DNA of 63,955 bases, the filler included, from Reclinomonas americana ATCC 50394 (taxonomy: Eukaryota), in NCBI GenBank assembly GCA_048213135.1. It is 8 parts of 4 records of this genome, joined end to end, with 100 filler letters (N's around TTAATTAATTAA, not from the genome) between each part and the next. Parts side by side here need not be neighbours in the genome. Positions count along the whole stretch, not along the records: positions 58,980 to 62,803 come from PS015614.1; 7 more parts are not named here. One strand, 5' to 3'. The first letter of the stretch is position 1. Each line of letters begins with the position of its first letter. This document shows positions 2,546 to 63,018 of this stretch, in pieces. Under the pieces are notes generated by a model, which did no database searches, was not told the DNA's origin, and saw nothing but the letters and a program-made list of their open reading frames with translations. Position numbers and translations under genes: made by a program.

Positions 2546-3671
2546 TCATGCTTCACGCCACCCAGGGGCCCGACGCTGCACCAACTCTGCATCCTCCAAC
2601 ACAAAACACCGCAGCACGACGTCGACCAGGATCCAGTCGCGATCATCGTCAACAAGGAGCTCGTTGATGGCCTGCACGGCCGAACGTGCTGTCGCGAGCT
2701 CCTGTTGGGCGAGTCCATGCGGTGTGGACCACACTCGTATCATGCCATCTCCGTCTCCACTCACAATGCGCTGGCCACTGGGAATAACAACAACAGATGA
2801 CACCCACTCGGTATGTCCTTCCAGTCGTCGCACCTCTGCGCCGTCGGCAAGTGACCACACCCGCACTGTCTTGTCTTCACCACCACTTACAACAAATTCA
2901 CCATCAGGTGTGATTGCCACACACTGCACCTCTCCAGTGTCCCCTTCAAGCCGCCGCTCCTCCTCACCGGTGGCCAGAGACCACAACCGAATCGTCATGT
3001 CCACGCCCCCACTCACAATGTGCTGACCATCGAGAGTGACGGTGACACACAACACGGTTCCCGCGTGTCCCTCAAGCCGTCGCACCTCCTCGCCAGTGGC
3101 CAGTGACCACAGTCGCACGGTCTTGTCAGCGCTGCCACTGACAACGTGCTGACCATCGGGGGTGATCGCGACCGAGTACACGGTGCCAGTGAGTCCCTCC
3201 AACCGTCGCACTTCTTCGCCTGTGGCCAGTGACCACACACGCACTGTACGGTCAAAGCTTCCGCTCACCACGTGCGAGCTATCGGGAGTGACGGCAACAG
3301 ACAACACCCCCCAGATGTGTCCCTCCAACCGGCGCACTTCTTCTCCACTCGCCAGTGACCACACACGCACAGTTCTGTCATCACCGCCGCTCACAATGTG
3401 CTGACCGTCGGGAGTTACGGCGATGAAATTCACCGCGTCAGTGTGTCCCTCCAACCGTCGAACCTCCTCGCCACTCGCCAACGACCACACACGCAATGCT
3501 TCGTCGCAACCGCCGCTCACAATGTGCCGACCGTCGGGAGTGACGGCGACAGACATTACAATAGCAGTGTGTCCCTTGAAGTTCTGCGCCACCCGCCTGC
3601 AGTGAGATGCACGATGAACAGACAAGAGGGGTGCTTCACACGCACACGCACACACGCACCTTTGTGATCAT
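2546..3671 (-). CDS. WD40-repeat protein, copy 1 (7 repeats + conserved C-terminal tail), apparently intact
   Basis: Seven 42-aa GH...VAVTPDG..IVSG..D..VRVWSL repeats. The likely start is the micro-exon MITK (ATG 3671), spliced GTGCGT...CAG to NFKGHT. Confidence 0.9.
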
Positions 3672-3950
3672 CCTGTTCGCGCGCGTGTGTGTGAGAATAG
3701 AAAGAGAGTGAATTGAGCTCGCATTGTCTCCTCACATCTCGCGCCATTTTATCTTCCCAGTCCAAGCTGCTGCCACCTCAACATTCTGCGCACGTAGATG
3801 CACGGATGTGAGGGTTGGACGAGAGCATCTCTGCAGATTGGCACGACGACAATAATCTCGGAATGCACGCGTACGGAAGAGGGCGGCACTTTACACTCAT
3901 ATGACTTCACTTGTCTGACCGGGCCCGGGAGGCAAGTTGCTTTCGTGTAC

Positions 3951-5043
3951 CTACCACCCGGTGGCCCGACGCTGCACCACCTCTGCGTCCTCCAGCACAA
4001 AACACCGCAGCACGACATCCACCAAAACCCAGTCGTGATCATCGTCAACAAGGAGCTCGTTGGTGGCCTGCACGGTCGAACGCGCAACCGCAAGTTCCTG
4101 TTCGGCAAGGGCACGCGCCGTGGACCACACTCGTATAATGCAATCTCCGCCTCCACTTGCAATGTGCTGGCCATCAGGAGTAACAACAACAGACGACACC
4201 CCAGAAGTGTGTCCTTCCAGTCGTCGCACTTCATCTCCACTCGCCAGCGACCATACTCGCACAGACTTGTCCACGCTGCCACTGACAACAAACTGACCAT
4301 CGGGTGTAATGGCGACAGACTTCACCCGATCAGTATGCCCCACCAGCCGTCGCACTTCCTCACCACTCGCCAGTGACCACACTCGCACAGTCTTGTCGCC
4401 ACTGCCACTCACAATGTACTGACCATCGGGAGTGACGGTGACAGCATACACTATACCTGTGTGCCCCACGCACCGTCGCACATCCTCGCCAGTTGCCAGT
4501 GACCACAGTCGCACAGTGTTATCAATGCTGTCGCTCACAATTTGGAGAACGTCGGAAGTGACTGCGACCGAGTATGCGAGCTCGGTGCCAGTGTGTCCCT
4601 CAAGCCGTCGCACTTCTTCTGCGCCAGTCGCCAGCGGCCACACTCGTATCGTCCAGTCAAAGCCCCCGCTCACTGCGTGTGACCCATCGGGAGTGACGGC
4701 GACAGACAACACGTATGCCATACCAGTGTGCTCTTCCAATCGTCAATGACCACACACGCACGGTATTGTCATCACTGCTGCTTACAATGTGCTCACCATC
4801 GGGCGTGACGGCGACCGAGTGCACACCTCTACTGTGTCCTTCCAAGAGTCGCACCTCTTCACCGCTCGCCAGCAACCACACGCGCACTGTGTTGTCGTAA
4901 CTGCCGCTGATTATGTGCCGTGACGGCGACCGAGTTCACACAGTCAGTGTGCCCCTTGAAGACCTGCACCTGCGGTGAGACGCACCAGGAACAGACAAGA
5001 AGGCGCCACCAGCACACACACACGCACGCACCTTTGTGATCAT
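3951..5043 (-). pseudogene. WD40-repeat copy 2, disrupted
   Basis: Same architecture, but split across three ORFs by deletions or frameshifts near 4740 and 4915-4920. Confidence 0.7.
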
Positions 5044-5342
5044 CCTGTTTCGCGTGCGTGTGTGTGAAAGACAGAGAGTGCATCGGACTCGCATTGTCTC
5101 CTCACATCTCGCGCCATTTTCTTTCGCCATGCAAGCTGCAGCCACGTCAACTGCCGCACGCGTTCATAAGTGGACGTGAAGGCGAATCTTTGCAGGCTGA
5201 CACGACAATGATCGTCTCGGAACATTGGCATGCAATTGGTCGGGCGAGGGTGGCACTTCACTTTACGTTCATCAGCACTTCACTCAGTCCACCGCGGGTG
5301 CGTAGCCTTCGTGTGGTATGCGATCGACAACAACGGACAGCC

Positions 5343-6213
5343 TTACCAACCAGGGGCACGGTGTTCAATCACCTCTGCATCCTCCAACACAAAACACCGC
5401 AGCACGACGTCGACCAGGATCCAGTCGCGATCATCGTCAACAAGGAGCTCGTTGATGGCTTGCACGGCCGAACGCGCGACTGCAAGCTCCTGCTGGGCGA
5501 GCGCATGCGCCGTGGACCACACTCGTATCGTGCCATCTCCGTCTCCACTCACAATGCGCTGGCCATTGGGAATAACAACAACAGATGACACCCAGGCAGT
5601 GTGTCCCTCCAGTCGTCGCACCTCCTCACCACTCGCCAGTGACCACACTCGCGCGGTCTTGTCATCACTACCACTCACAACACATTGACCATCAGGTGTG
5701 ATTGCCACACACTGCACCTCTTCAGTGTGCCCATCCAGCCGTCGCTCCTCCTCACCGGTGGCCAGTGACCACACTCGCACTGTCTTGTCCTCGCTCCCAC
5801 TCACAATATGCTGGCCATCGGGGGTGATGGCGACAGACAACACGGTTCCCTCGTGTCCCTCAAGCCGTCGCACCTCCTCGCCATTCATCAGTGACCACAG
5901 TCGCACGGTCTCGTCCCGACCCCCACTGACAACGTGCTGACCATCGGGAGTGATGGCGACTGAGAACACGGTGACAGTGTGCCCCTCAAGACGTCGCACC
6001 TCCTCGCCAGTCGCCAGTGACCACAATCGTATTGTCTTGTCAGAGCTTCCGCTCACCGCGTGTGAACTATCGGGAGTGACGGCGACACAGAACACCGTTC
6101 CATCGTGTCCTTCCAACACATGCACTTCCTCGCCAGTCGCCAGTGACCACACTCGCATTGTCTCGTCATCACCGCCGCTCACAATGTGCTCACCGTCGGG
6201 CGTGACAGCGATC
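5343..6213 (-). CDS. WD40-repeat protein, copy 3 (5' end in gap)
   Basis: Open frame with about 6 WD40 repeats and the tail ending ...EHRAPGW*. Confidence 0.85.
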
Positions 6214-6721
6214 NNNNNNNNNNNNNNNNNNNNNNNNNNNNNNNNNNNNNNNNNNNNNNNNNNNNNNNNNNNNNNNNNNNNNNNNNNNNNNNNNNNNNNN
6301 NNNNNNNNNNNNNNNNNNNNNNNNNNNNNNNNNNNNNNNNNNNNNNNNNNNNNNNNNNNNNNNNNNNNNNNNNNNNNNNNNNNNNNNNNNNNNNNNNNNN
6401 NNNNNNNNNNNNNNNNNNNNNNNNNNNNNNNNNNNNNNNNNNNNNNNNNNNNNNNNNNNNNNNNNNNNNNNNNNNNNNNNNNNNNNNNNNNNNNCACCTC
6501 GCGCCATTTCTCTCCCCTGCCCGAGCTGCAGCCGCTTTGACATTCTGCACCTGGTCGTACGTGGTTGCGGAGGTTGGGTGATGTGCCGGTTGTGACAAAG
6601 ACGCTTGTGAAACACTGACTCAAGAAATTGACACTTCACTTAACACTCGCTTGATTCAACTGACGCTGGGGGCGCGCAGCCTTCGTGTGGCGCGGGGGTC
6701 AGCAACAGGCGACACCTTCTA

Positions 6722-7848
6722 TCATGCTTCACGCCACCCAGGGGCCCGACGCTGCACCACCTCTGCATCCTCCAACACGAAACACCGCAGCACGACATCC
6801 ACCAGGATCCAGTCGCGACCATCGTCAACAAGGAGCTCGTTGATGGCCTGCACGGTCGAACGCGCAACCGAGAGCTCCTGTTCGGCGAGCCCGCGCGCCG
6901 TGGACCACACTCGTATCGTGCGATCTGCGCCTCCACTCACGATGTGCTGGCCATCGGGGGTGACGGCAACAGACGGCACCCAGGCAGTGTGTCCCTCCAG
7001 TCGTCGCACCTCCTCCCCGTTGGCAAGTGACCACACTCGAGCGGTCTTGTCATCACTACCACTCACAACAAATTGACCATCGGGTGTGGTGGCGACAGAA
7101 TACACTGCATTAGTGCGCCCCTCCAGCCGTCGCACCTCCTCACCGGTGGCCAGTGACCACACTCGCACTGTTTTGTCCTCGCCCCCACTCACAATGCGCT
7201 GGCCATCGGGAGTGATGGCGACGGCATGCACTATACCTGTGTGCCCCACGCATCGTCGCTCTTCCTCGCCAGTGGCGAGTGACCACAGTCGCACCGTCTT
7301 GTCAGCGCTGCCACTGACAGCGTGCAAACCGTCGGGGGTGACGGCAACAGACCACACCGTGTAAGTGTGCCCCTCAAGACGTCTCACCTCCTCGCCAGTC
7401 GCCAGTGACCACACTCGAATTGTCTTGTCATCGCCCCCGCTCACCACGTGTGAACCATCGGGAGTGGTGGCAACACAGAACACCAACCCATCGTGTCCTT
7501 CCAACACATGCACTTCCTCGCCAGTCGCCAGCGACCACACACGTACAGTACTGTCATCACTGCCGCTCACAATGTGCTCACCGTCGGGCGTCAGGGCGAC
7601 TGAATTCACACATTCTGTGTATCCTTTCAGCCGCCACACCTCGCCGCCACTGGCTACACACCACACTCGTACTGTGTCGTCGTAACTGCCACTCACAACG
7701 TGCTGACCATCGGGAGTGACGGCGACAGACAGCACGCTGAAAGTGTGTCCCTTCAGAATCTGCGCCCGCGCAATGGCGGTGAGATGCACCAGGAGCAGGC
7801 AACAAGGCGCCACCAGTCATACACACACGCACGCACCTTCGAGATCAT
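6722..7848 (-). CDS. WD40-repeat protein, copy 4 (7 repeats + tail), apparently intact
   Basis: Micro-exon MISK (ATG 7848), then an intron, ILKGHTFSV and seven repeats, ending ...RRAPGWREA*. Confidence 0.9.
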
Positions 7849-8154
7849 CCTGTTCTCGCGCGCGTGTGTGTGTGTGTGTGAAAGACAGAGAGTGCATCGG
7901 ACTCGCACTGTCTCCTCACATCTCGCGCCATTTTCTTTCGCCATGCAAGCTGCAGCCACGTTAACTGCCGCACACGTTCATACGTGGACGTGAATGTAGA
8001 TGAGTGCATCTTTGCAGGCTGACACGACATCTGTCGTCTCGGAACAATGATACATTGTAACACTTCTTGACCCTCGAGCTCGCTTGACTAAAGTGACGCT
8101 GGGGGCGCGCAGCCTTCGCATGGCGCGGAGGCCAGCAACAGGCGACACCTTCTA

Positions 8155-10006
8155 TCATGCTTCACGCCACCCAGGGGCCCGACGCTGCACCACCTCTGCG
8201 TCCTCAAGCACGAAGCACCGCAGCACGACATCGACGAGAACCCAATCGCGATCATCGTTGATGAGCAGCTCGTTGATGGCCTGCACGGCCGAACGTGCTA
8301 CCGAGAGCTCCTTTTCGGCGAGCCCGCGCGCCGTGAACCACATGCGCACCATCTTGTCTCGACCACCACTCGCAATGTGCTGACCAGCGGGAGTGACGGC
8401 GACAGAATTCACCACGTCCGTGCACCCGTCGACGTCCAGTCGTCGCACCTCCTCACCACTCGACAGTGACCACACTCGCAACGTCTTGTCATCACTGCCA
8501 CTGACGACAAACTGACCGTCGGGTGTGGTGGCGACAGAATACACTGCATTAGTGTGCCCCTCCAGCCGTCGCATCTCCTCACCGGTGGCCAGTGACCACA
8601 CTCGAATCGTCATATCTTCGCCTCCACTCACAATGTGCTGACCATTGGGAGAGACGGCGACAGACAACACGTTCGCAGCGTGTCCCTGACACCGTCGCAC
8701 CTCCTCGCCAGTGGCCAGTGACCACAGTCGCACGGTCTCGTCCCGACTGCTACTCACAATGTGCTGGCCGTCAGGGGTGACGGCGACCGAGAACACGGTG
8801 CCAGTGTGCCCCTCAAGAAGTCGCACCTCCTCGCCTGTGGCCAGTGACCACACACGGNNNNNNNNNNNNNNNNNNNNNNNNNNNNNNNNNNNNNNNNNNN
8901 NNNNNNNNNNNNNNNNNNNNNNNNNNNNNNNNNNNNNNNNNNNNNNNNNNNNNNNNNNNNNNNNNNNNNNNNNNNNNNNNNNNNNNNNNNNNNNNNNNNN
9001 NNNNNNNNNNNNNNNNNNNNNNNNNNNNNNNNNNNNNNNNNNNNNNNNNNNNNNNNNNNNNNNNNNNNNNNNNNNNNNNNNNNNNNNNNNNNNNNNNNNN
9101 NNNNNNNNNNNNNNNNNNNNNNNNNNNNNNNNNNNNNNNNNNNNNNNNNNNNNNNNNNNNNNNNNNNNNNNNNNNNNNNNNNNNNNNNNNNNNNNNNNNN
9201 NNNNNNNNNNNNNNNNNNNNNNNNNNNNNNNNNNNNNNNNNNNNNNNNNNNNNNNNNNNNNNNNNNNNNNNNNNNNNNNNNNNNNNNNNNNNNNNNNNNN
9301 NNNNNNNNNNNNNNNNNNNNNNNNNNNNNNNNNNNNNNNNNNNNNNNNNNNNNNNNNNNNNNNNNNNNNNNNNNNNNNNNNNNNNNNNNNNNNNNNNNNN
9401 NNNNNNNNNNNNNNNNNNNNNNNNNNNNNNNNNNNNNNNNNNNNNNNNNNNNNNNNNNNNNNNNNNNNNNNNNNNNNNNNNNNNNNNNNNNNNNNNNNNN
9501 NNNNNNNNNNNNNNNNNNNNNNNNNNNNNNNNNNNNNNNNNNNNNNNNNNNNNNNNNNNNNNNNNNNNNNNNNNNNNACTGTACGGTCAAAGCTTCCGCT
9601 CACCACGTGCGAGCTATCGGGAGTGACGGCAACAGACAACACCCCCCAGATGTGTCCCTCCAACCGGCGCACTTCCTCGCCTGTAGTCAGTGACCACACA
9701 CGCACGGTTCTGTCATCACCGCCACTGACAATGTGCTGACCGTCGGGAGTGACAGCGACCGAGTTCACCGAGTCAGTGTGTCCCTCCAACCGTCGCACCT
9801 CCTCGCCACTCGCCACCGACCACACACGCAATGCTTCGTCGCAATCGCCGCTCACAATGTGCCGACCGTCGGGAGTGACGGCGACAGACATTACAATAGC
9901 AGTGTGTCCCTTGAAGCACTGCGCCACCCGCCTGCAGTGAGATGCACGAGGAACAGACAAGAAGGGTGCTTCACACGCACACGCACACACGCACCTTTGT
10001 GATCAT
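8155..10006 (-). CDS. WD40-repeat protein, copy 5 (gap inside; may be halves of two copies)
   Basis: Three repeats 5' of gap 8858-9577, and four repeats plus the tail 3' of it. The gap edges abut in repeat register. Confidence 0.75.
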
Positions 10007-11137
10007 TCTCTTCGCGCGCGTGTGTGTGAGAAAGAGAGTGAATTAGGCTCGCATTGTCTCCTCANNNNNNNNNNNNNNNNNNNNNNNNNNNNNNNNNNNN
10101 NNNNNNNNNNNNNNNNNNNNNNNNNNNNNNNNNNNNNNNNNNNNNNNNNNNNNNNNNNNNNNNNNNNNNNNNNNNNNNNNNNNNNNNNNNNNNNNNNNNN
10201 NNNNNNNNNNNNNNNNNNNNNNNNNNNNNNNNNNNNNNNNNNNNNNNNNNNNNNNNNNNNNNNNNNNNNNNNNNNNNNNNNNNNNNNNNNNNNNNNNNNN
10301 NNNNNNNNNNNNNNNNNNNNNNNNNNNNNNNNNNNNNNNNNNNNNNNNNNNNNNNNNNNNNNNNNNNNNNNNNNNNNNNNNNNNNNNNNNNNNNNNNNNN
10401 NNNNNNNNNNNNNNNNNNNNNNNNNNNNNNNNNNNNNNNNNNNNNNNNNNNNNNNNNNNNNNNNNNNNNNNNNNNNNNNNNNNNNNNNNNNNNNNNNNNN
10501 NNNNNNNNNNNNNNNNNNNNNNNNNNNNNNNNNNNNNNNNNNNNNNNNNNNNNNNNNNNNNNNNNNNNNNNNNNNNNNNNNNNNNNNNNNNNNNNNNNNN
10601 NNNNNNNNNNNNNNNNNNNNNNNNNNNNNNNNNNNNNNNNNNNNNNNNNNNNNNNNNNNNNNNNNNNNNNNNNNNNNNNNNNNNNNNNNNNNNNNNNNNN
10701 NNNNNNNNNNNNNNNNNNNNNNNNNNNNNNNNNNNNNNNNNNNNNNNNNNNNNNNNNNNNNNNNNNNNNNNNNNNNNNNNNNNNNNNNNNNNNNNNNNNN
10801 NNNNNNNNNNNNNNNNNNNNNNNNNNNNNNNNNNNNNNNNNNNNNNNNNNNNNNNNNNNNNNNNNNNNNNNNNNNNNNNNNNNNNNNNNNNNNNNNNNNN
10901 NCATCTCGCGCCATTTTCTCTTCCCAGTCCAAGCTGCTGCCATCTCAACATCCTGCGTACGTAGATGGACGGATATGAGGGTTTGGCGAGAGCATCTCTG
11001 CAGATTGGCACGACGACAATAATCTCGGAATGCACGCGTACGGAAGAGGGCGGCAATTCACTTTTGCACTATAGCTAACATGCATATATATGCACTTCAC
11101 TCAGTCTGGCACCGGGAGGCAAGTTGCTTTCGTGTAC

Positions 11138-12237
11138 CTACCACCCAGTGGCCCGACGCTCCACCACCTCTGCATCCTCCAACACAAAACACCGCAGAAC
11201 GACGTCGACCAGGATCCAGTCGCGAGCATCCTCGTCAACAAGGAGCTCGTTGACGGCTTGCACGGCCAACCGTGCGACCACGACCTCCTGCCCGGCAAGC
11301 GCACGTGCCGTGGACCACATTCGTATCGTGCAATCTCCGTCTCCACTCACAATGCGCTGGCCATTGGGAGTAACAACAACAGACGACACCCCAGAAGTGT
11401 GCCCCTCCAGTCGTCGCACCTCTTCGCTACTCGCCAGCGACCATACTCGCACAGACTTGTCCACGCTGCCACTGACAACAAACTGACCATCGGGTGTGAT
11501 GGCGACAGAAAACACTGCACGAGTGTGCCCCTCCAGCCGTCGCACCTCCTCACCGGTGGCCAGTGACCACACTCGCACTGTCTTGTCCTCGCCCTCACTC
11601 ACGATGTACTGACCATCGGGTGTGACGGTGACAGCTTGCACTACATCTGTGCACCCCACGCATCGTCGCACCTCCTCGCCAGTTGCCAGTGACCATAGTC
11701 GCACGGTCTTGTCAGCGCTGCCACTGACAGCGTGCAAACCGTCGGGGTTGACGGCGACCGAGAACACGGCGCCAGTGTGCCCCTCCAACCAGTGACCACA
11801 CACGCACTGTACGGTCAAAGCTCCCGCTCACCACGTGCGAGCTATCGGGAGTGACGGCAACACACAGCACCCCCCAGTTGTGTCCCTCCAGCCGATGCAC
11901 TTCCTCGCCAGTCGCCAGTGACCACACACGCACAGTTCTGTCATCACCGCCACTGACAATGTGCTGACCGTCGGGAGTGACGGCGACCGAGAACACACCT
12001 CTACTGTGTCCCTCCAACCGTCGCACCTCTTCGCCTGTGGCCAGTGACCACACACGCATTGTTTTGTCGTATCCGCCGCTCACAATGTGTTGACCATCGG
12101 GAGTGACAGCGACAGTCGTCACCACATTGTGGTGCCCCTTGAAGATCTGCACCACCCGCCACATGTGAGATGCACCAGGAGCAGGCAACAAGGCGCCACC
12201 AGCACACACACACACACGCACGCACCTTCGTGATCAT
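11138..12237 (-). pseudogene. WD40-repeat copy 6, frameshifted
   Basis: A deletion near 11790 (the ATGEEVRRL segment is lost) splits the gene into ORFs 11712-12221 and 11138-11818. Confidence 0.7.
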
Positions 12238-57000: not shown

Positions 57001-58879
57001 TACAACTCGCTGGAGACGGATGCGGCGGGTGGCGAGGATGTTGCGTCGTGCTCTTGTTCACATTCGATTTTAACGTGAACTTGTCTTGACTCATTAGTTC
57101 ACAGGCCTCTGGTGGTTCGTCTGCTGGCAAGAGCAACGACTTGTTGATGGGCGCGTGGACGCGCGACCAGTACTTGGCGTTGGTGAAGGAGGAGCTGGAT
57201 GCGTTTGAACGCGACAGCCGCACCCTCGACCTGTGCTTCTTCCCTGAGGTGGTCGGCCACTTGTCACACATGCAGCGAGTGCTGAGTCGCACATTTGGTG
57301 TGTGCAATCTGCACTTTTCCCTCCTCTCACGCTGTCTCCGCCACTGCTCATTACCGTTTGCTTTTTTGTTTTCTCTCACAGGCCACCTCTTGCTGTGCGG
57401 TCGCTCTGGTGTGGGTCGCCGCAGTCTGCTGCAGCTGGCTGCGCACGCCCTCCGACTCACCGTCTTTACGCCGGTGCTGACCAAGGACTACGGCGTCAAG
57501 GCCTTCCGCGGCGATCTCAAGTCCCTGTGCAAGATGCTCACGCTCGAAAACAAGCGTGTCGTGTTCTTCATCGAGGACCATCACATCACCGATCCGCTGT
57601 TTATGGAGCTGGTGAACAGTTTGTTGAGTGCCAGCGAGGTGCCTGGACTGTACACACCCGAAGAGGTTTTGTGAAACGAAGACTAGCAGAAGCTATGTGC
57701 ATGTGTGTGCAGTTGTGCTGACTCCCCCATGCACAGTTTGCCAAGGAGTACGACAATCTGAAGAAGCAGCAGGCCGCCGAAGGACATGGTGGCACTCTGC
57801 ACACGTTCTTCGTCAACCGCATTCGCCGCAACTTGCACGTGGTGCTGTCGCTCGATCCGGGCCATCCGCACTTTGTCAACATTACGCAGAGCAATCCGGC
57901 TCTCTTTACTCGCTGCGCGATTCTGTGGCTCGACACCTGGTCCAAGGACGGCATGCGTGCCGTGCCCCTGGCGTCGCTGGAGGAGCTCTTGCAGGGTCAC
58001 GATGTTGCGTTTTCATTCTTTCCGCGTTCGTCTATCACTCCCGCCTCACCCGCTCCCCCACCGCATCAGGAAATGGACACGGAGCAAATGCTGAAGCACA
58101 TCAACACGATTCACGCTTCGTGTGTGCAGAGTGGCGCCACCCCGCGCCACTTTGTGTCGTTCATCAAGTCGTTCAAGCGCATCTTTGACGAAAAGTACTC
58201 GGCGCTGAATCACCAGACCAAGCGCCTGCAAAAGGGTCTGGACAAGCTCAACGACGCCGCCTCGCACGTCGACAGTCTGGCGTCGAATGCGCGCGAGAAG
58301 CGTGTGATTCTCGCGCAGAACGAGGAGGAGGCGAACCATGCGCTGAACGAGATCTCGGCTGCCATGGAGGCCGCCCGCGTCAAGAAGAAGGAGGTGGAGG
58401 AGCTGACGGAGAAGCAGCAGGGCAAGGAGGAGGAGATTGCCAAGCGCAAGTCGCACATTGACGTGCAAATGGCCGACGTGTACCCGATTCTGGAGGCGGC
58501 CAAGAAGGCCGTCGGAGGAGTGCGTCTTCATTTGTCTCTCTCATTTTCTGTTGCACACTCGTTCACTCACTTTCCTCATCTACCTGCGTTCTCCACACAG
58601 ATCAACCCGAAGGACTTGCAGTACATCCGCTCGCTGCGTGCCCCGCCCGACACGATTCGCGACATTCTGCAGGGCGTCATGACGCTGCTGGGTGACGCCG
58701 ATACGTCGTGGAGTGGCATGCGCAAGCTGCTGTCGGATCCGAGTGTGCAGCAGCAAATCATCTCGTTCGACGCGCGCGCCATTCAGCAGAACACGCGTGA
58801 CGAGGTGCAAGCGCTGCTCGCTCGCAATGCGACCTCGTTCGAGCCGGAGGCCGCCAAGCGTGCGTCGGCCGCCGCCGCC
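46224..58879 (+). CDS. DYNC2H1: Cytoplasmic dynein 2 heavy chain (retrograde IFT motor), partial at both ends, at least 26 introns
   Basis: [38 protein letters not shown]1 GPAGTGKTE with [11 protein letters not shown]2 [11 protein letters not shown]3 GPAGCGKS and the dynein-2-type AAA4 GRSGVGRR, followed by the start of the stalk. Confidence 0.96.
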
Positions 58880-59040
58880 NNNNNNNNNNNNNNNNNNNNN
58901 NNNNNNNNNNNNNNNNNNNNNNNTTAATTAATTAANNNNNNNNNNNNNNNNNNNNNNNNNNNNNNNNNNNNNNNNNNNNCGGAATCGATCGCTTCGCACA
59001 AAACGCCGAAATCGTGCCCGGTCGCCCGCACGCGCAAGCC

Positions 59041-60965
59041 ATGTCGTCGAGCAAGAATAGCGCGAGGTGCAAGCGCTCGGGACGCGGTCCAGCTGGTGCA
59101 CCCGCCGCCGCCGCCGCTGCGCCAGAAGGTGGTGGTGGCTTGTCGACGTATGCTGTGGTGGTGAGTCGGCGGTTGGGATGTGGTGAAGGAGGAAGTGATG
59201 GTTGTCTCACGGGGTGCTTTGGATGCAGGCCCTCCCACCCGGCAACTACGTGGCGGTGAACAATCTGCCGCTCACAGTCACACCCGATGCGTTGCGCGAG
59301 TTCTTCTCCAGTGTTGGAGAAATTGAGGATGTGCAGGTGCGAGGCGGAAGGGGGATTTGGAGAAGGGATATCACACCATCGAATGGTCGTCTTTGCGTGT
59401 CAGCGAGAGAGAGAGAGGGACCAACAGAGGGTGTCAGAGCAGTGGAGTTCGTATTTGCGCGTCACATGTTGCAGCCAGAGAGATGGACAGAGAGCCAGCT
59501 GTGTGAGAGAGATGAAGAGAGAAGAAGGTATGAATTCCAAGGACACCGTGCTGCAGAGACAGAGGTTCACAAGACTGAGAGAGAGAGAGAGAGAAGAGAT
59601 ATGTGTCCATTTGTTCTCGCGCGAGTTCTTCTCCAGTGTTGGAGAAACTGAGGACGTCTGGATATGTGGCAGAAGAAGAGCGGGATGGGAGTGTCAGAAC
59701 TTCAAGCATTTCCATGCTCCCATGTCCCACTCTCCTTATTCCTTTCCCTCCTCCTTCTCCCTCTCCCCCTCCTCCTTCTCCCTCCCTCCCCAGGTACGAC
59801 CCTGCACACGAAACGAGCGACAATGCAAGGCACTTCTTCGCTTCCGCGAGAGNNNNNNNNNNNNNNNNNNNNNNNNNNNNNNNNNNNNNNNNNNNNNNNN
59901 NNNNNNNNNNNNNNNNNNNNNNNNNNNNNNNNNNNNNNNNNNNNNNNNNNNNNNNNNNNNNNNNNNNNNNNNNNNNNNNNNNNNNNNNNNNNNNNNNNNN
60001 NNNNNNNNNNNNNNTCCACACGCCCTCTCTTACAAACACACATCTGCAAGCGTAGTAATTCTGCATTTCTCTCTCACTCTCTCTCCTTTCTCTTCCCCTC
60101 TCCTTTCCCTCCCACCCCCTTTCCCCCTTCCCCCTTCTCCTTTCCCTCTAACCCCCCTTCTACCCCTTCCCAGATCCATGCCACCCCACCCCCCCGCGTC
60201 CTCCAGCGCCCCTCCTCGGGCCAGTACGCCCCCCTCGATGTGGCCGCCGCCGCCCCACCCTCTCGGCATGCCGCATCAATCCTACCCGCACCTGAGCAAC
60301 ACAGTCGCTACGGTGCATCGTACACTGGTGCGTCTTTCTCTCTCCCTTCTCTCTCCTTCCCCCTCCTCCTCCTTACCCTCTCACCTCCCCCTCTGGCAGC
60401 CAACGCCTACCGCGAAATCAGTGCCACCAACATTGGAATGTATGAACAAGATCGCCCGGAGCAGCCGGTCGCCCAAGCTGTCCGCCCCCCTCGCCAACCC
60501 TCGCCTACCGCCACTCAGGCACCCTCTCATCTTTCGTCCTCTTTCTCCTCCTCCTCTTCCTCCTCTTCCTCCTCCGTGCATCCGGGCCACGACGAACGCG
60601 TGTGGACTCGCCTTGCCGTGTCGACCCCGCCAGCCTCCATACAACCGCCTTCGCAGGCCGCCTTGGACATTGCCGCCCGCGCCGGCTACGTGATTGTCGA
60701 TCCGCCGGCGAGACCACCACCGCCGCCCTATCAAAAGGCCGACCCGTTCCCTGCTGTATTTGGTGGCGGTGTTGGCGGCCACGAGGCGGCACCGCCCGAC
60801 CCGCAAGTCAATCAGGCGGAGGCCGTCCGCTGGCTGATGCAAAAGATGGCGGAGTTGGCGGTGTCGGGCGTGACTGAAGACTTGTGCCGCACGGCGTTGC
60901 ACAGCAACGAGAACCAGATGGAGGAGGCCGTCATATGGTTGATCTCGATGCAAGCACATGAATGA
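59041..60965 (+). CDS. RRM + Pro/Ser-rich + C-terminal UBA-like domain protein
   Basis: YVAVNNLPLTVTPDALREFFSSVGEIEDVQ (RRM) and GVTEDLCRTALHSNENQMEEAVIWL (UBA). There is a gap inside the gene. Confidence 0.7.
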
Positions 60966-61040
60966 ACAGCTGCCATTCATTCAGCAAGATGACCAAGCAT
61001 CAACGCAGATAACAGTAGCGGTAGGGTTTCTTGTATGCGT

Positions 61041-62219
61041 TCAGCTTCTTCCCTTTCGCGGCGGAGCCACAAACGTGTGAAACCCATATCCCTCGCCAGC
61101 ATCTACACCCTCCACTCGCACGCGACACACTGGACACTCGCCGCTCTTGCTCACCAGCCGCTCTGCGCACTCCCGACACAACACCTGGTGCATGCACGGA
61201 CGCAGTCGCGTCTCGCGCAGTCCATCGCACACCATGCACGCCCGTCGGCACGACAGCACAGTGAGATCACTCAACTCGCTCGCCAGCTGTTGTGCTGTTG
61301 GACGGCGTGCTGGGCGACCATCCAGACATCTGCAGATTGGTCAGTCAGCGTGTTTCCTCGCAACTCTCGTGGACAGAGACACACAAGTACCTCAGTGCCA
61401 ATCGCACAATCCGCTCACACACAGGAGCCGGCCACGGTCGACCGACAGCACCATCCGCCAGATCCACCGCGGCGTCGAGCAATGCTTCGCCATCAACGTC
61501 GTCCATCTCCTCCAGTGCCTCCACTCGCCGGTGTACCTCCTCAATCGGTAGCCCGCTGAACACTTGCAGGAGGACGAGACCAAGCGAGAACACATCCGAG
61601 CTCGGTCGCAGCTGGCCGTGCATGGCCTTGGGGTCGGCGTATTTCGGGTCGCCAGCAAAATGCACTGACAGATGCGTCTGTGGCACGAGAAGGGGAAGGA
61701 GAGAGACAGGGTGAGGAGAGGAAAGGAGACTGGGCAGGAAAGAGTCACTCACCCCCTCGGTGCGGAACCAGTGCGCCAACCCCAGGTCCGAGATGTAAGC
61801 CATTCCACTGTGGTTGAACAGAATGTTGGCTGGCTTCAGGTCGCGATGGATCACTGTGTGAGAGAGAGAGAGCATATGAGCGGGAACAAAATGAGCAGAG
61901 GATGGAAAGCAGACACACGTACCGTTCTGTGCACACCGACAAGCGCACAGAACGACACGAGTCAGTCAACGAAGAGAATGATAATGGAAATACACGCACG
62001 ATCTCTCTCACTCACATGCCTGCATCATCAGCAACGACAAAGTGAGTCCAAAAAGAATGGAGAACAAAGCACTAGACAGCCAGGCATGTGACACGCAACT
62101 TATGCAGCGAAGCAACAGCCTCGGCACATCGCAGCATGCATGTCATGCGTGCCTCAATCGACATGGCCGGCAGTCCGCGCTCCGCCCACTGCAGCAGTCG
62201 GTGCTCCAAGTTGTGCTCA
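61041..62219 (-). CDS. IRAK/Pelle/RLK-like kinase fused to C-terminal C3HC4 (IAP-type) RING, 5' partial
   Basis: LHKHNVIHRDLKPANIL, ISDLGLA, GDPKYADP, SDVFSLG, LLD..WP..RLALRCLD..RRP, then CMVC..LRPCMHQVLCRECAERL..CPVCR. Confidence 0.85.
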
Positions 62220-62662
62220 CTGTAAATCACGAGAGAGTGAGTGCACGAGCATAAGCCATCTCCCCTACGGAAAGACAGTGAGATGGTGGTGATAATCGAT
62301 CAAGACAGAGAGAAGCATGCTAAGTCGAATGTAGAGTAAACAAGCTGGGAGCACACGCTCCCACTCTCAAGATCTCAATCTCTCTCTTTCTCTCTCTTCT
62401 CTCACGCACACACACTTTTTTCCTTCACCCACAGCCGCAGTTTTCCGTCTCTGCGTTTGCATTCTTACTCTCCCTCTCTCTCTCTCTCTTCCTTTCTCCA
62501 ATTGTCTCTCTGCATCACACACATCAACATGCTCACCGTCACGACAGAAGATATCTGGTTCTCTCTCTTTCTCTCTCACGCACAGCACACACACTCTCCC
62601 TTCACCCTGCTGCTCGCTCTGTTACCCACAGCCGCAGTTTTCCGTCTCTACTTTCGCAATCT

Positions 62663-62707
<45 letters not shown>

Positions 62708-62904
62708 CTACTACTACTCTACTACCTACGTACTACGTACGTACTACGTACGTTACGTTACCGTACGACGTACGTAACGTTACGTACGTACGTACGTACG
62801 TACNNNNNNNNNNNNNNNNNNNNNNNNNNNNNNNNNNNNNNNNNNNNTTAATTAATTAANNNNNNNNNNNNNNNNNNNNNNNNNNNNNNNNNNNNNNNNN
62901 NNNA

Positions 62905-63018
62905 GCCAACGGTACCGGCCTTGACGACGTCGTAGTTCTTGCAGGTGTAGTTGCAGCTGTTGGCCAGCGCGACCGCCACACACAGAGAGAGGACAGCGAT
63001 GAAGAGGGTCTTGGACAT
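62905..63018 (-). CDS. N-terminus of a secreted or membrane protein (signal peptide), cut by gap
   Basis: MSKTLFIAVLSLCVAVALA|NSCNYTCKNYDVVKAGTVG from ATG 63018. Confidence 0.6.

What the first reader, a model, noticed from the sequence alone, without database searches (positions are those of the whole stretch)
61854..62099. Two consecutive 4-nt micro-exons build the kinase segment just before HRD
On the minus strand the path is CAT AA|GTTGCGT...CAG|GCAT|GTGAGT...CAG|AACG|GTACGT...CAG|TG ATC CAT CGC. Exons 62019-62016 and 61926-61923, with introns of 80, 89 and 69 nt (typical sizes here), restore a textbook LHKHNVIHRDLKP. Tandem 4-nt exons are extreme and invisible to ORF tracks, and they imply pure intron-definition splicing. 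Skipping either one would frameshift the gene, which could act as an on/off switch (inference).
Basis: partly seen in the sequence, partly recalled or inferred. Interest (0 to 1): 0.7.

Follow-up and report, generated by a model that had tools for sequence, protein, structure and literature searches.

The report
Two 4-base exons in a kinase gene
A protist kinase-plus-RING gene most likely needs two exons of only four bases each, between three ordinary short introns, to encode its catalytic loop, but no RNA data could be found to confirm this.

Summary
The sequence is exactly as described. On the minus strand lie exon...CAT AA | 80-nt intron | GCAT (62019-62016) | 89-nt intron | AACG (61926-61923) | 69-nt intron | TG ATC CAT CGC.

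The host is an IRAK/Pelle/RLK-like kinase C-lobe with a C-terminal RING finger.

I trained splice-site matrices on 21 homology-anchored introns from the window. Twenty of them are 60-95 nt long. All six proposed sites score in the normal range, including the odd donor GTTGCG, which is a recurrent donor here.

Of 130 in-frame GT-AG paths, the two-micro-exon path ranks first. It stays first unless each extra intron costs more than about 17-21 bits. None of 1000 shuffled or substituted interiors reached its score.

It gives the canonical H-x5-HRD spacing, seen in 163 of 259 homologue segments.

Skipping either micro-exon creates an immediate TGA.

No RNA run, orthologue or annotated protein was available, so splicing remains predicted.

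Verdict: real, well beyond chance, and an extreme member of a known kind (ultra-short micro-exons). The switch idea is untested.

The parts
62100..62219 (-). Upstream coding exon (kinase helix E region, ...RCAEAVASLHK; ends with two bases AA of a split codon). Its 5' edge is uncertain. An acceptor at 62220 scores 8.7 bits, but the frame stays open up to a second acceptor at 62265 (6.8 bits), and that extension reads like kinase subdomain V.
   Evidence: one homologue alignment (P0004) starts at 62251 and reads through 62220
62020..62099 (-). Intron 1, 80 nt, GTTGCG...GCAG; donor 4.4 bits, acceptor 8.6 bits; CTCAC branch-like motif 23 nt from the 3' end
   Evidence: GTTGCG is the donor of 4 of the 21 training introns
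62016..62019 (-). Micro-exon 1, GCAT (completes AAG = K, then CAT = H)
61927..62015 (-). Intron 2, 89 nt, GTGAGT...CACAG; donor 6.8 bits, acceptor 5.2 bits; CTGAC 35 nt from the 3' end
61923..61926 (-). Micro-exon 2, AACG (AAC = N, then G starts GTG = V)
61854..61922 (-). Intron 3, 69 nt, GTACGT...CACAG; donor 6.4 bits, acceptor 9.0 bits; CTCAT 23 nt from the 3' end
61753..61853 (-). Exon with the catalytic loop and the DFG-equivalent (IHRDLKPANILF...SDLGLA...)
   Evidence: Pkinase E 1.6e-07, 31.4 bits against a cut-off of 31.7 for this 33-residue piece
61678..61752 (-). Intron 4, 75 nt, GTGAGT...CACAG, in frame and without a stop
61391..61677 (-). Exon with the activation segment through the kinase C-lobe (Y-A-D-P, SDVFSLG...)
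   Evidence: best solved relative IRAK4, E 4.1e-13
61330..61390 (-). Intron 5, 61 nt, GTACTT...TGCAG, CTGAC branch-like motif
61041..61329 (-). Last exon: end of the kinase domain, C3HC4 RING finger, stop codon at 61043-61041
   Evidence: zf-C3HC4_3 E 2.2e-10, 40.6 bits, cut-off 27

Best explanation
The productive mRNA of this kinase-RING gene is made by removing three ordinary short GT-AG spliceosomal introns (80, 89 and 69 nt). These leave two constitutive 4-nt exons, GCAT and AACG. The eight bases, with the split codons on either side, encode K-H-N-V and so connect the end of helix E (..SLH) to the catalytic loop (IHRDLKP) at the canonical spacing.

Inferred, not shown: each intron is recognised across itself (intron definition), as expected for a genome whose introns are 60-95 nt. 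A 4-nt exon leaves little room for factors at the upstream 3' splice site and U1 at the downstream 5' splice site at once. The three introns are therefore probably removed one after another, most simply 5' to 3' as they are transcribed.

Shown from the sequence: omitting either micro-exon places TGA in frame at the junction, so a mis-spliced mRNA encodes a protein that ends before the catalytic loop.
For: (1) Coordinates, GT-AG boundaries and frame are verified.

(2) Splice-site matrices were trained on 21 homology-anchored introns: 19 in the neighbouring dynein-2 gene and 2 in this gene. They give donors 4.4, 6.8 and 6.4 bits and acceptors 8.6, 5.2 and 9.0 bits. The leave-one-out medians for true sites are 5.1 and 6.5. 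The three acceptors are the only ones above 1 bit in 62130-61830.

(3) GTTGCG, the donor of intron 1, is used by 4 of the 21 training introns.

(4) The lengths 80, 89 and 69 lie in the 60-95 nt range of 20 of the 21 training introns.

(5) Each of the three introns has its own YTSAY branch-like motif, 23-35 nt from its 3' end. 18 of the 21 training introns have such a motif in their last 55 nt.

(6) Protein fit: H lies six residues before HRD in 163 of 259 non-redundant homologue segments. At position -2, V occurs in 81 and M in 4. At position -3, N occurs in 13 and V in 8. The HMM gives 73.9 bits for this model, 71.5 for the 8-nt model and 63.7 for the no-micro-exon model. Homologue P0003 reads H-A-H-K-F-I-H-R-D at the same place.

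(7) This model ranks first of 130 in-frame, stop-free GT-AG paths. Under five matrix variants it stays first unless each extra intron is charged more than 17-21 bits.

(8) 0 of 500 plus 0 of 500 null sequences reach its score.
Against: No RNA, no orthologue and no annotated protein could be found, so nothing shows the splice junctions directly.

Spliced alignment guided by homology alone, with a flat intron penalty, did not favour this path. Over about 255 of the 259 homologue segments at four penalties, it was not among the eight most frequent outcomes at any penalty. Most runs found no junction, the 241-nt intron, or at low penalty the 8-nt model. The case therefore rests on splice-site, length and profile scores combined.

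The matrices come from only 21 introns, nearly all from one gene, and are not very selective: donors of at least 6.4 bits occur 3.5 times per kb and acceptors of at least 5.2 bits 5 times per kb across the window.

The smallest exon between the homology-anchored dynein introns is about 100 nt by my subtraction of the coordinates, so micro-exons are not shown to be common in this genome.

The N-lobe of the kinase was not found; it lies beyond a scaffold gap. An incomplete or dead gene therefore cannot be excluded.
Confidence: 0.62

Rival explanations
1. One 8-nt micro-exon. Intron 1 (80 nt) is removed as above. The exon is GCATGTGA (62019-62012), and a 158-nt intron runs from the donor GTGAGA at 62011 to 61854. 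This gives LHKHVMIHRD with the canonical spacing. The AACG arrangement would then be a coincidence inside the intron.
For: In frame and stop-free, with the canonical H-x5-HRD spacing and an HMM score of 71.5 bits, only 2.4 below the best model. It was found by the homology-guided aligner with P0003 at penalties 5-15, and it was the outcome for 16 query segments at penalty 8. It needs one micro-exon instead of two. GTGAGA is a donor type seen in a dynein intron at 51714.
Against: Donor 62011 scores 1.3 bits against 6.8 for the donor 4 nt upstream. A 158-nt intron lies outside the 60-95 nt range of 20 of 21 training introns. M at position -2 occurs in 4 of 259 segments and V at -3 in 8 of 259. 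The combined score is 76.4 against 97.4. A score of at least 76.4 for a two-intron path arises in 6 of 500 and 14 of 500 null sequences, so it is less exceptional. The model also leaves a 5.2-bit acceptor followed at 4 nt by a 6.4-bit donor unexplained.
Confidence: 0.12
2. Other micro-exon combinations. Either a single 8-nt exon AACGGTAC (61926-61919; introns of 173 and 65 nt; LHKTVLIHRD), or GCAT plus a 10-nt second exon (donor at 61916; LHKHNGTLIHRD).
For: Both are in frame. The combined score is 89.1 for the 4+10 nt version, which ranks second. The single AACGGTAC exon has an HMM score of 70.0 bits.
Against: Their donors are weaker: 61918 scores 3.8 and 61916 scores 4.1, against 6.4 for 61922. 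The second adds two residues and drops the HMM score to 68.5.
Confidence: 0.07
3. No micro-exon. The donor is GTGTCA at 62094 and a single 241-nt intron runs to 61854, giving LHKLLIHRD.
For: This is the simplest structure. It was the commonest junction chosen by flat-penalty homology alignment at penalties 12-20: 24, 12 and 8 query segments. One of the 21 training introns is long, at 282 nt.
Against: The donor scores -3.2 bits, and -0.7 to -3.1 under the other matrices. The spacing is one residue short, which puts L where 163 of 259 homologue segments have H. The HMM score is 63.7 bits, 10 below the best model. The model reads the recurrent donor motif GTTGCG as coding sequence. The combined score is 56.3 against 97.4.
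Confidence: 0.05
4. The locus is not a working gene. It could be a truncated or decaying kinase copy on a small, gap-flanked contig, or a local assembly error. The apparent splice path would then have no biological meaning.
For: No N-lobe exons were found in the 580 nt upstream, which are GA-repeat rich and end at a scaffold gap. No relative or annotated product was found in three protein searches and two metagenome scans.
Against: The four larger exons are open and show intact HRD, DLG, Y-x-D-P and SDVFSLG motifs and a complete C3HC4 RING. All five introns have normal-scoring sites. A decaying copy would not be expected to keep a 0-in-1000 splice configuration.
Confidence: 0.1

Closest known systems
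Ultra-short plant micro-exons: the 1-nt exons of APC11 and VPS55, and a conserved 4-nt phase-2 micro-exon in RECQ3 (PMC4674806, abstract and introduction read; PMC8831610, passages read)
   Same: These are coding exons of 1-15 nt flanked by normal GT-AG introns. They are missed by annotation and read mappers, needed to keep the frame, and have strong donors directly after the micro-exon.
   Different: The plant cases are proven by RT-PCR or RNA-seq and conserved across land plants. This one is a prediction in an unidentified flagellate with 60-95 nt introns and has no known orthologue.
Adjacent micro-exon pairs: rice peptidase M1 with 5-nt and 12-nt exons validated by RT-PCR (PMC8831610, passage read), and human RPS24 with 3-, 18- and 22-bp micro-exons (PMC12207440, abstract in the search listing only)
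   Same: Two or more micro-exons in a row within one gene.
   Different: Here both exons would be only 4 nt, 8 nt in total, and both would be obligatory for the frame. The RPS24 micro-exons are alternative and lie at the 3' end of the coding region.
Recursive splicing and spliceosomal twin introns (stwintrons; PMC6616335, abstract in the search listing only; the rest recalled)
   Same: A stretch of non-coding RNA is removed in several ordered spliceosomal steps, with a 3' splice site lying next to a 5' splice site.
   Different: At ratchet points no exon bases remain, and in stwintrons an intron interrupts another intron's splice signal. Here 4 nt of coding sequence remain after each step and no splice signal is interrupted.
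IRAK/Pelle/plant receptor-like kinase group (best solved relative IRAK4, E 4.1e-13, then SYMRK, Pto, BRI1 and FERONIA), and kinase-E3 fusions such as Arabidopsis KEG (recalled, not tested)
   Same: The catalytic loop is HRDLKxxN, the activation segment has the Y-x-D-P motif typical of this group, and a RING finger sits in the same polypeptide.
   Different: No death domain or receptor part was seen. The RING is C-terminal here, whereas in KEG it is N-terminal as recalled. The best real homologues are only about 35-45% identical over the matched stretches.

Membership tests
Spliceosomal (U2-type GT-AG) introns flanking micro-exons | GT at the 5' end and AG at the 3' end of each proposed intron, with contexts like those of other introns in the genome | tested here: met
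   Donors score 4.4, 6.8 and 6.4 bits and acceptors 8.6, 5.2 and 9.0 bits on matrices from 21 other introns. The leave-one-out ranges are 0.6-9.5 and -3.8-10.5. The result is robust to five matrix variants.
Spliceosomal (U2-type GT-AG) introns flanking micro-exons | Branch-site-like motif upstream of each 3' splice site, and an intron length within the genome's range | tested here: met
   CTCAC, CTGAC and CTCAT lie at 23, 35 and 23 nt. 18 of 21 training introns have such a motif. Lengths 80, 89 and 69 compare with 60-95 nt in 20 of 21.
Spliceosomal (U2-type GT-AG) introns flanking micro-exons | Spliced junctions seen in mRNA | not testable with these tools
   No RNA run could be listed for the gene, so no reads could be laid.
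Spliceosomal (U2-type GT-AG) introns flanking micro-exons | Micro-exon and flanking intron positions conserved in orthologues | tested here: inconclusive
   No orthologue was found. Protein searches gave nothing close, metagenome scans gave none, there is no paralogue in the window, and no whole genome is held.
Protein kinase domain (Pfam PF00069) | Catalytic loop HRDxKxxN, DFG-type motif and activation segment | tested here: met
   The exon reads IHRDLKPANILF...SDLGLA. Pkinase gives E 1.6e-07 for the 33-residue exon, 31.4 bits, just under the whole-protein cut-off of 31.7. IRAK4 is the best solved match.
Protein kinase domain (Pfam PF00069) | N-lobe with glycine loop and the VAIK lysine | tested here: not met
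   Not found in the 580 nt upstream of the exon, which end at a scaffold gap at 62804. It may lie beyond the gap.
RING finger, C3HC4 type (Pfam PF13920) | Profile match above the curated cut-off | tested here: met
   zf-C3HC4_3 gives E 2.2e-10, 40.6 bits against a cut-off of 27, over profile positions 3-48 of 49.
Recursive-splicing ratchet point | 3' and 5' splice sites directly juxtaposed, with no exon base retained | tested here: not met
   Four bases lie between AG and GT at both places, and they are needed for the frame.

The most novel reading that the evidence does not exclude
The two 4-nt exons enforce an obligatory order of splicing, because each is too short for splice-site factors to sit on both of its sides at once. 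Any lapse yields an immediate in-frame TGA. The amount of this kinase-E3 protein would then be set by splicing fidelity or kinetics, making a built-in splicing-dependent switch. It would also be the shortest tandem pair of constitutive coding exons described.
Probability: 0.15. Interest if true: 0.65.

Novelty: new member of a known kind. Interest (0 to 1): 0.45.

Why it matters
If confirmed, this would be one of the most extreme exon arrangements known: eight coding bases split into two exons inside the most conserved part of a kinase. It would show that, in a genome of 60-95 nt introns, exon size places almost no limit on splicing. It would also be a warning for annotation. ORF-based and homology-only gene finders miss it; my own flat-penalty aligner did. 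They would then report a truncated or one-residue-short kinase. The approach used here could find more such cases: local splice matrices, an intron length model, a family profile, and enumeration of all paths with shuffles as a control.

Tried and rejected
RNA evidence: for window 61000-62330 no RNA holder was listed, so read laying could not be used.

Whole genome: none is held.

Earlier scan notes: none for this genome or sequence. The notes found by words concern phage group I introns and are irrelevant.

Homologues of the 96-residue C-lobe exon: none among longer proteins (1964 candidates) and none among proteins of similar length (29 candidates). The full HMMER scan gave 4731 kinases but nothing close. 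The top hit (E 4e-46) is an artefact made of repeated kinase fragments.

Related loci in metagenome contigs: none with either the C-lobe exon or the RING exon.

Paralogue in the window: none.

Homology-only spliced alignment with a flat penalty gave scattered outcomes and was not decisive.

Introner-like origin: the five introns resemble neither each other nor other places in the window beyond CT/GA low complexity.

Rfam: no family matched anywhere in the window.

U12-type introns were rejected by eye, because the donors do not resemble the ATATCC/GTATCC consensus as I recall it.

GC-AG donors were not enumerated for the kinase junction. None of the 21 training introns uses one. One low-support call (1 of 8 queries, 557 nt) did begin with GC and was not included.

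The organism was not identified. The dynein-2 exon is at most 50% identical to anything returned.

Literature: searches for '4-nt exon' and variants, for consecutive or tandem micro-exons and for micro-exon with intron definition found no report of two consecutive exons of 4 nt or less. These searches cover only the open-access library.

Full report
**What is there**

An exon ends ...GCT TCG CTG CAT AA at 62100. Next come an 80-nt stretch (62099-62020, GTTGCG...GCAG), then GCAT (62019-62016), then 89 nt (62015-61927, GTGAGT...CACAG). After that come AACG (61926-61923), 69 nt (61922-61854, GTACGT...CACAG), and finally TG ATC CAT CGC from 61853. A script that cuts these pieces out by coordinate prints GCAT and AACG. 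It shows that the join is in frame and open to a stop codon at 61043-61041.

**The gene**

Downstream, two further introns (61752-61678, 75 nt; 61390-61330, 61 nt) join exons that encode three parts:
- the catalytic loop and a DLG motif;
- an activation segment with Y-A-D-P and SDVFSLG;
- a C3HC4 RING finger.

Pfam gives zf-C3HC4_3 at E 2.2e-10 (40.6 bits, cut-off 27). It gives Pkinase at E 1.6e-07 for the 33-residue catalytic-loop exon alone (31.4 bits, cut-off 31.7). The best solved relative is IRAK4 (E 4.1e-13), followed by plant receptor-like kinases. The gene is therefore an IRAK/Pelle/RLK-like kinase fused to a C-terminal RING.

Its N-lobe was not found. The 580 nt upstream are rich in GA repeats and end at a scaffold gap at 62804. 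The upstream exon may begin at 62264 rather than 62219.

**The genome's introns**

The window also holds a cytoplasmic dynein-2 heavy-chain gene on the plus strand. Its exons are collinear with homologues even across a linker of N44-TTAATTAATTAA-N44. The linkers are therefore scaffold gaps and not joins of unrelated contigs.

A spliced aligner I wrote, run with eight dynein homologues, gave 19 usable introns. Sixteen were each called by at least 4 of the 8 queries. I added the other three by eye because they looked canonical, although only 1 or 2 queries called them. With the two clear kinase introns, this makes a training set of 21.

The lengths are 60, 61, 61, 63, 65, 65, 66, 66, 69, 71, 74, 74, 74, 75, 78, 81, 81, 84, 91, 95 and 282 nt. 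The donors are GTGCGT, GTGAG(T/A/C), GTACG(T/G), GTGTGT and, four times, GTTGCG. The last is the donor proposed for intron 1, which I had first taken to be weak. Eighteen of the 21 carry a [CT]T[CGA]A[CT] motif in their last 55 nt.

**Scoring the proposal**

On matrices from these 21 introns:
- the three proposed donors score 4.4, 6.8 and 6.4 bits (leave-one-out median of true donors 5.1);
- the three acceptors score 8.6, 5.2 and 9.0 bits (median 6.5).

No other acceptor in 62130-61830 exceeds 1 bit. Each proposed intron has its own branch-like motif: CTCAC at 23 nt, CTGAC at 35 nt and CTCAT at 23 nt.

**Rival paths**

A single 8-nt exon GCATGTGA, with a donor at 62011 and introns of 80 and 158 nt, gives LHKHVMIHRD.

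I then enumerated all GT-AG paths between the two exons that meet three conditions: up to two internal exons of 1-30 nt, introns of at least 40 nt, and an open frame through IHRDLKP. This gave 130 paths: 2 with one intron, 38 with two and 90 with three. Each was scored as splice-site bits, plus the log probability of its intron lengths, plus bits from a profile HMM. The HMM was built from 259 non-redundant kinase segments, taken from the 150 best hits of a full HMMER scan.

| Path | Combined score |
|---|---|
| Two 4-nt exons | 97.4 (sites 40.3, lengths -16.8, HMM 73.9) |
| 4-nt + 10-nt exons | 89.1 |
| One 8-nt exon (GCATGTGA) | 76.4 |

Under five matrix variants the two-micro-exon path stays first unless each extra intron is charged more than 17-21 bits. 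The variants were dynein-only training, three pseudocounts and two backgrounds.

**Protein fit**

H lies six residues before HRD in 163 of the 259 segments. The two-micro-exon and 8-nt models keep this spacing, and the 241-nt model is one residue short.
- At position -2, V occurs 81 times and M 4 times.
- At position -3, N occurs 13 times and V 8 times.

Homologue P0003 reads H-A-H-K-F-I-H-R-D at the same place.

**Chance**

I replaced the 217-nt interior with 500 dinucleotide shuffles and with 500 random stretches of the window. No three-intron path reached 97.4 (maxima 89.5 and 97.2; the locus itself was not excluded from the sampling). A two-intron score of at least 76.4 arose in 6 and 14 of the 500.

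Across both strands of the window (2 x 56,356 nt), an acceptor of at least 5.2 bits followed at exactly 4 nt by a donor of at least 6.4 bits occurs at two places. One is micro-exon 1. Micro-exon 2 sits at the threshold. With both thresholds at 4 bits there are 14 such places.

**Results against my reading**

- Spliced alignment by homology alone, with a flat intron penalty, did not favour the two-micro-exon path. I ran about 255 of the 259 segments before the time limit, at four penalties. The path was not among the eight commonest outcomes at any penalty. The commonest were no junction, the 241-nt intron, and at penalty 8 a path with a 3-nt exon (19 segments) and the 8-nt model (16 segments).
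- The matrices rest on 21 introns and are only moderately selective.
- The exons between the homology-anchored dynein introns are all about 100 nt or longer, by my subtraction of the intron coordinates. Micro-exons are therefore not shown to be common here.
- No RNA, orthologue or annotated product exists in what I could search.

**Mechanism**

Shown:
- the splice signals, lengths and frame;
- skipping micro-exon 2 gives ...K H stop, and skipping micro-exon 1 gives ...K T stop, in both cases at the TGA that begins the next exon;
- skipping both shifts the frame to a stop 118 codons into the test construct.

Inferred:
- recognition across each short intron;
- stepwise removal of the three introns, because a 4-nt exon cannot easily hold factors on both of its sides at once;
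- degradation of skipped forms. The switch idea has no support beyond this.

**Comparison with what is known**

Exons of 1-15 nt are documented in plants, including a 1-nt exon in APC11 (PMC4674806, abstract and introduction read). PMC8831610 (passages read) reports a conserved 4-nt micro-exon in RECQ3 and an RT-PCR-validated adjacent pair of 5 and 12 nt in a rice peptidase gene. Human RPS24 has three micro-exons in a row (search listing).

My searches of the open-access library found no report of two consecutive exons of 4 nt or less.

**Verdict**

The two-micro-exon model is the best-supported reading (about 0.6). A single 8-nt exon is the main rival. The finding is an extreme new member of a known kind, and it is still a prediction that awaits cDNA.

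Noticed in passing
window 51228-58600 (+), e.g. donors at 52248, 56857, 57040, 58004; also 62099 (-): GTTGCG is a recurrent 5' splice site in this genome (4 of 21 homology-anchored introns), alongside GTGCGT, GTGAGT and GTACGT. By my recollection of the U1 5' end it would pair poorly with canonical U1, which hints at relaxed or divergent 5' splice-site recognition.
   Followed up: partly
window 47556-58879 (+): A cytoplasmic dynein-2 (IFT) heavy-chain gene with about 20 short introns runs across several assembly gaps, so the organism is a flagellate or ciliate. The best database identity for a 303-residue exon is only 50%, which suggests a poorly sampled lineage.
   Followed up: partly
window 23624-23723, 32294-32393, 40170-40269, 44706-44805, 53704-53803, 58880-58979, 62804-62903: There are seven pairs of 44-N runs set 12 nt apart. 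The one I read has TTAATTAATTAA between the runs, which is a stop in all six frames. The dynein gene is collinear across the pair at 53704-53803, so these mark scaffold gaps between ordered contigs.
   Followed up: partly
window 2546-11827 (-): A tandem array of at least six long open frames encodes near-identical WD40-repeat proteins (repeat unit ...TPDGQHIVSG..D.T.RVWSLATGEEVRRLEGH...), each with the same conserved non-WD C-terminal tail.
   Followed up: no
window 59000-60968 (+) versus 61041 (-): A plus-strand gene has RRM-like pieces and a UBA/TAP-C-like C-terminus ending at about 60965. It converges on the kinase gene, and the two stop codons are only about 75 nt apart, so the 3' UTRs probably overlap.
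   Followed up: no
window 62220-62265 (-): The kinase exon may start at 62264 (acceptor 6.8 bits) instead of 62219 (acceptor 8.7 bits). The frame is open between them, the extra residues (...SLVIYSEH...) resemble kinase subdomain V, and the 45 nt are too short to hold an intron of the local type.
   Followed up: partly
window 62904-63017 (-): An ATG-initiated open frame with a signal-peptide-like start (MSKTLFIAVLSLCVAVALA...) runs into the gap just upstream of the kinase exons. Whether it is the 5' end of the same gene, which would make it a receptor-like kinase, is unknown.
   Followed up: no
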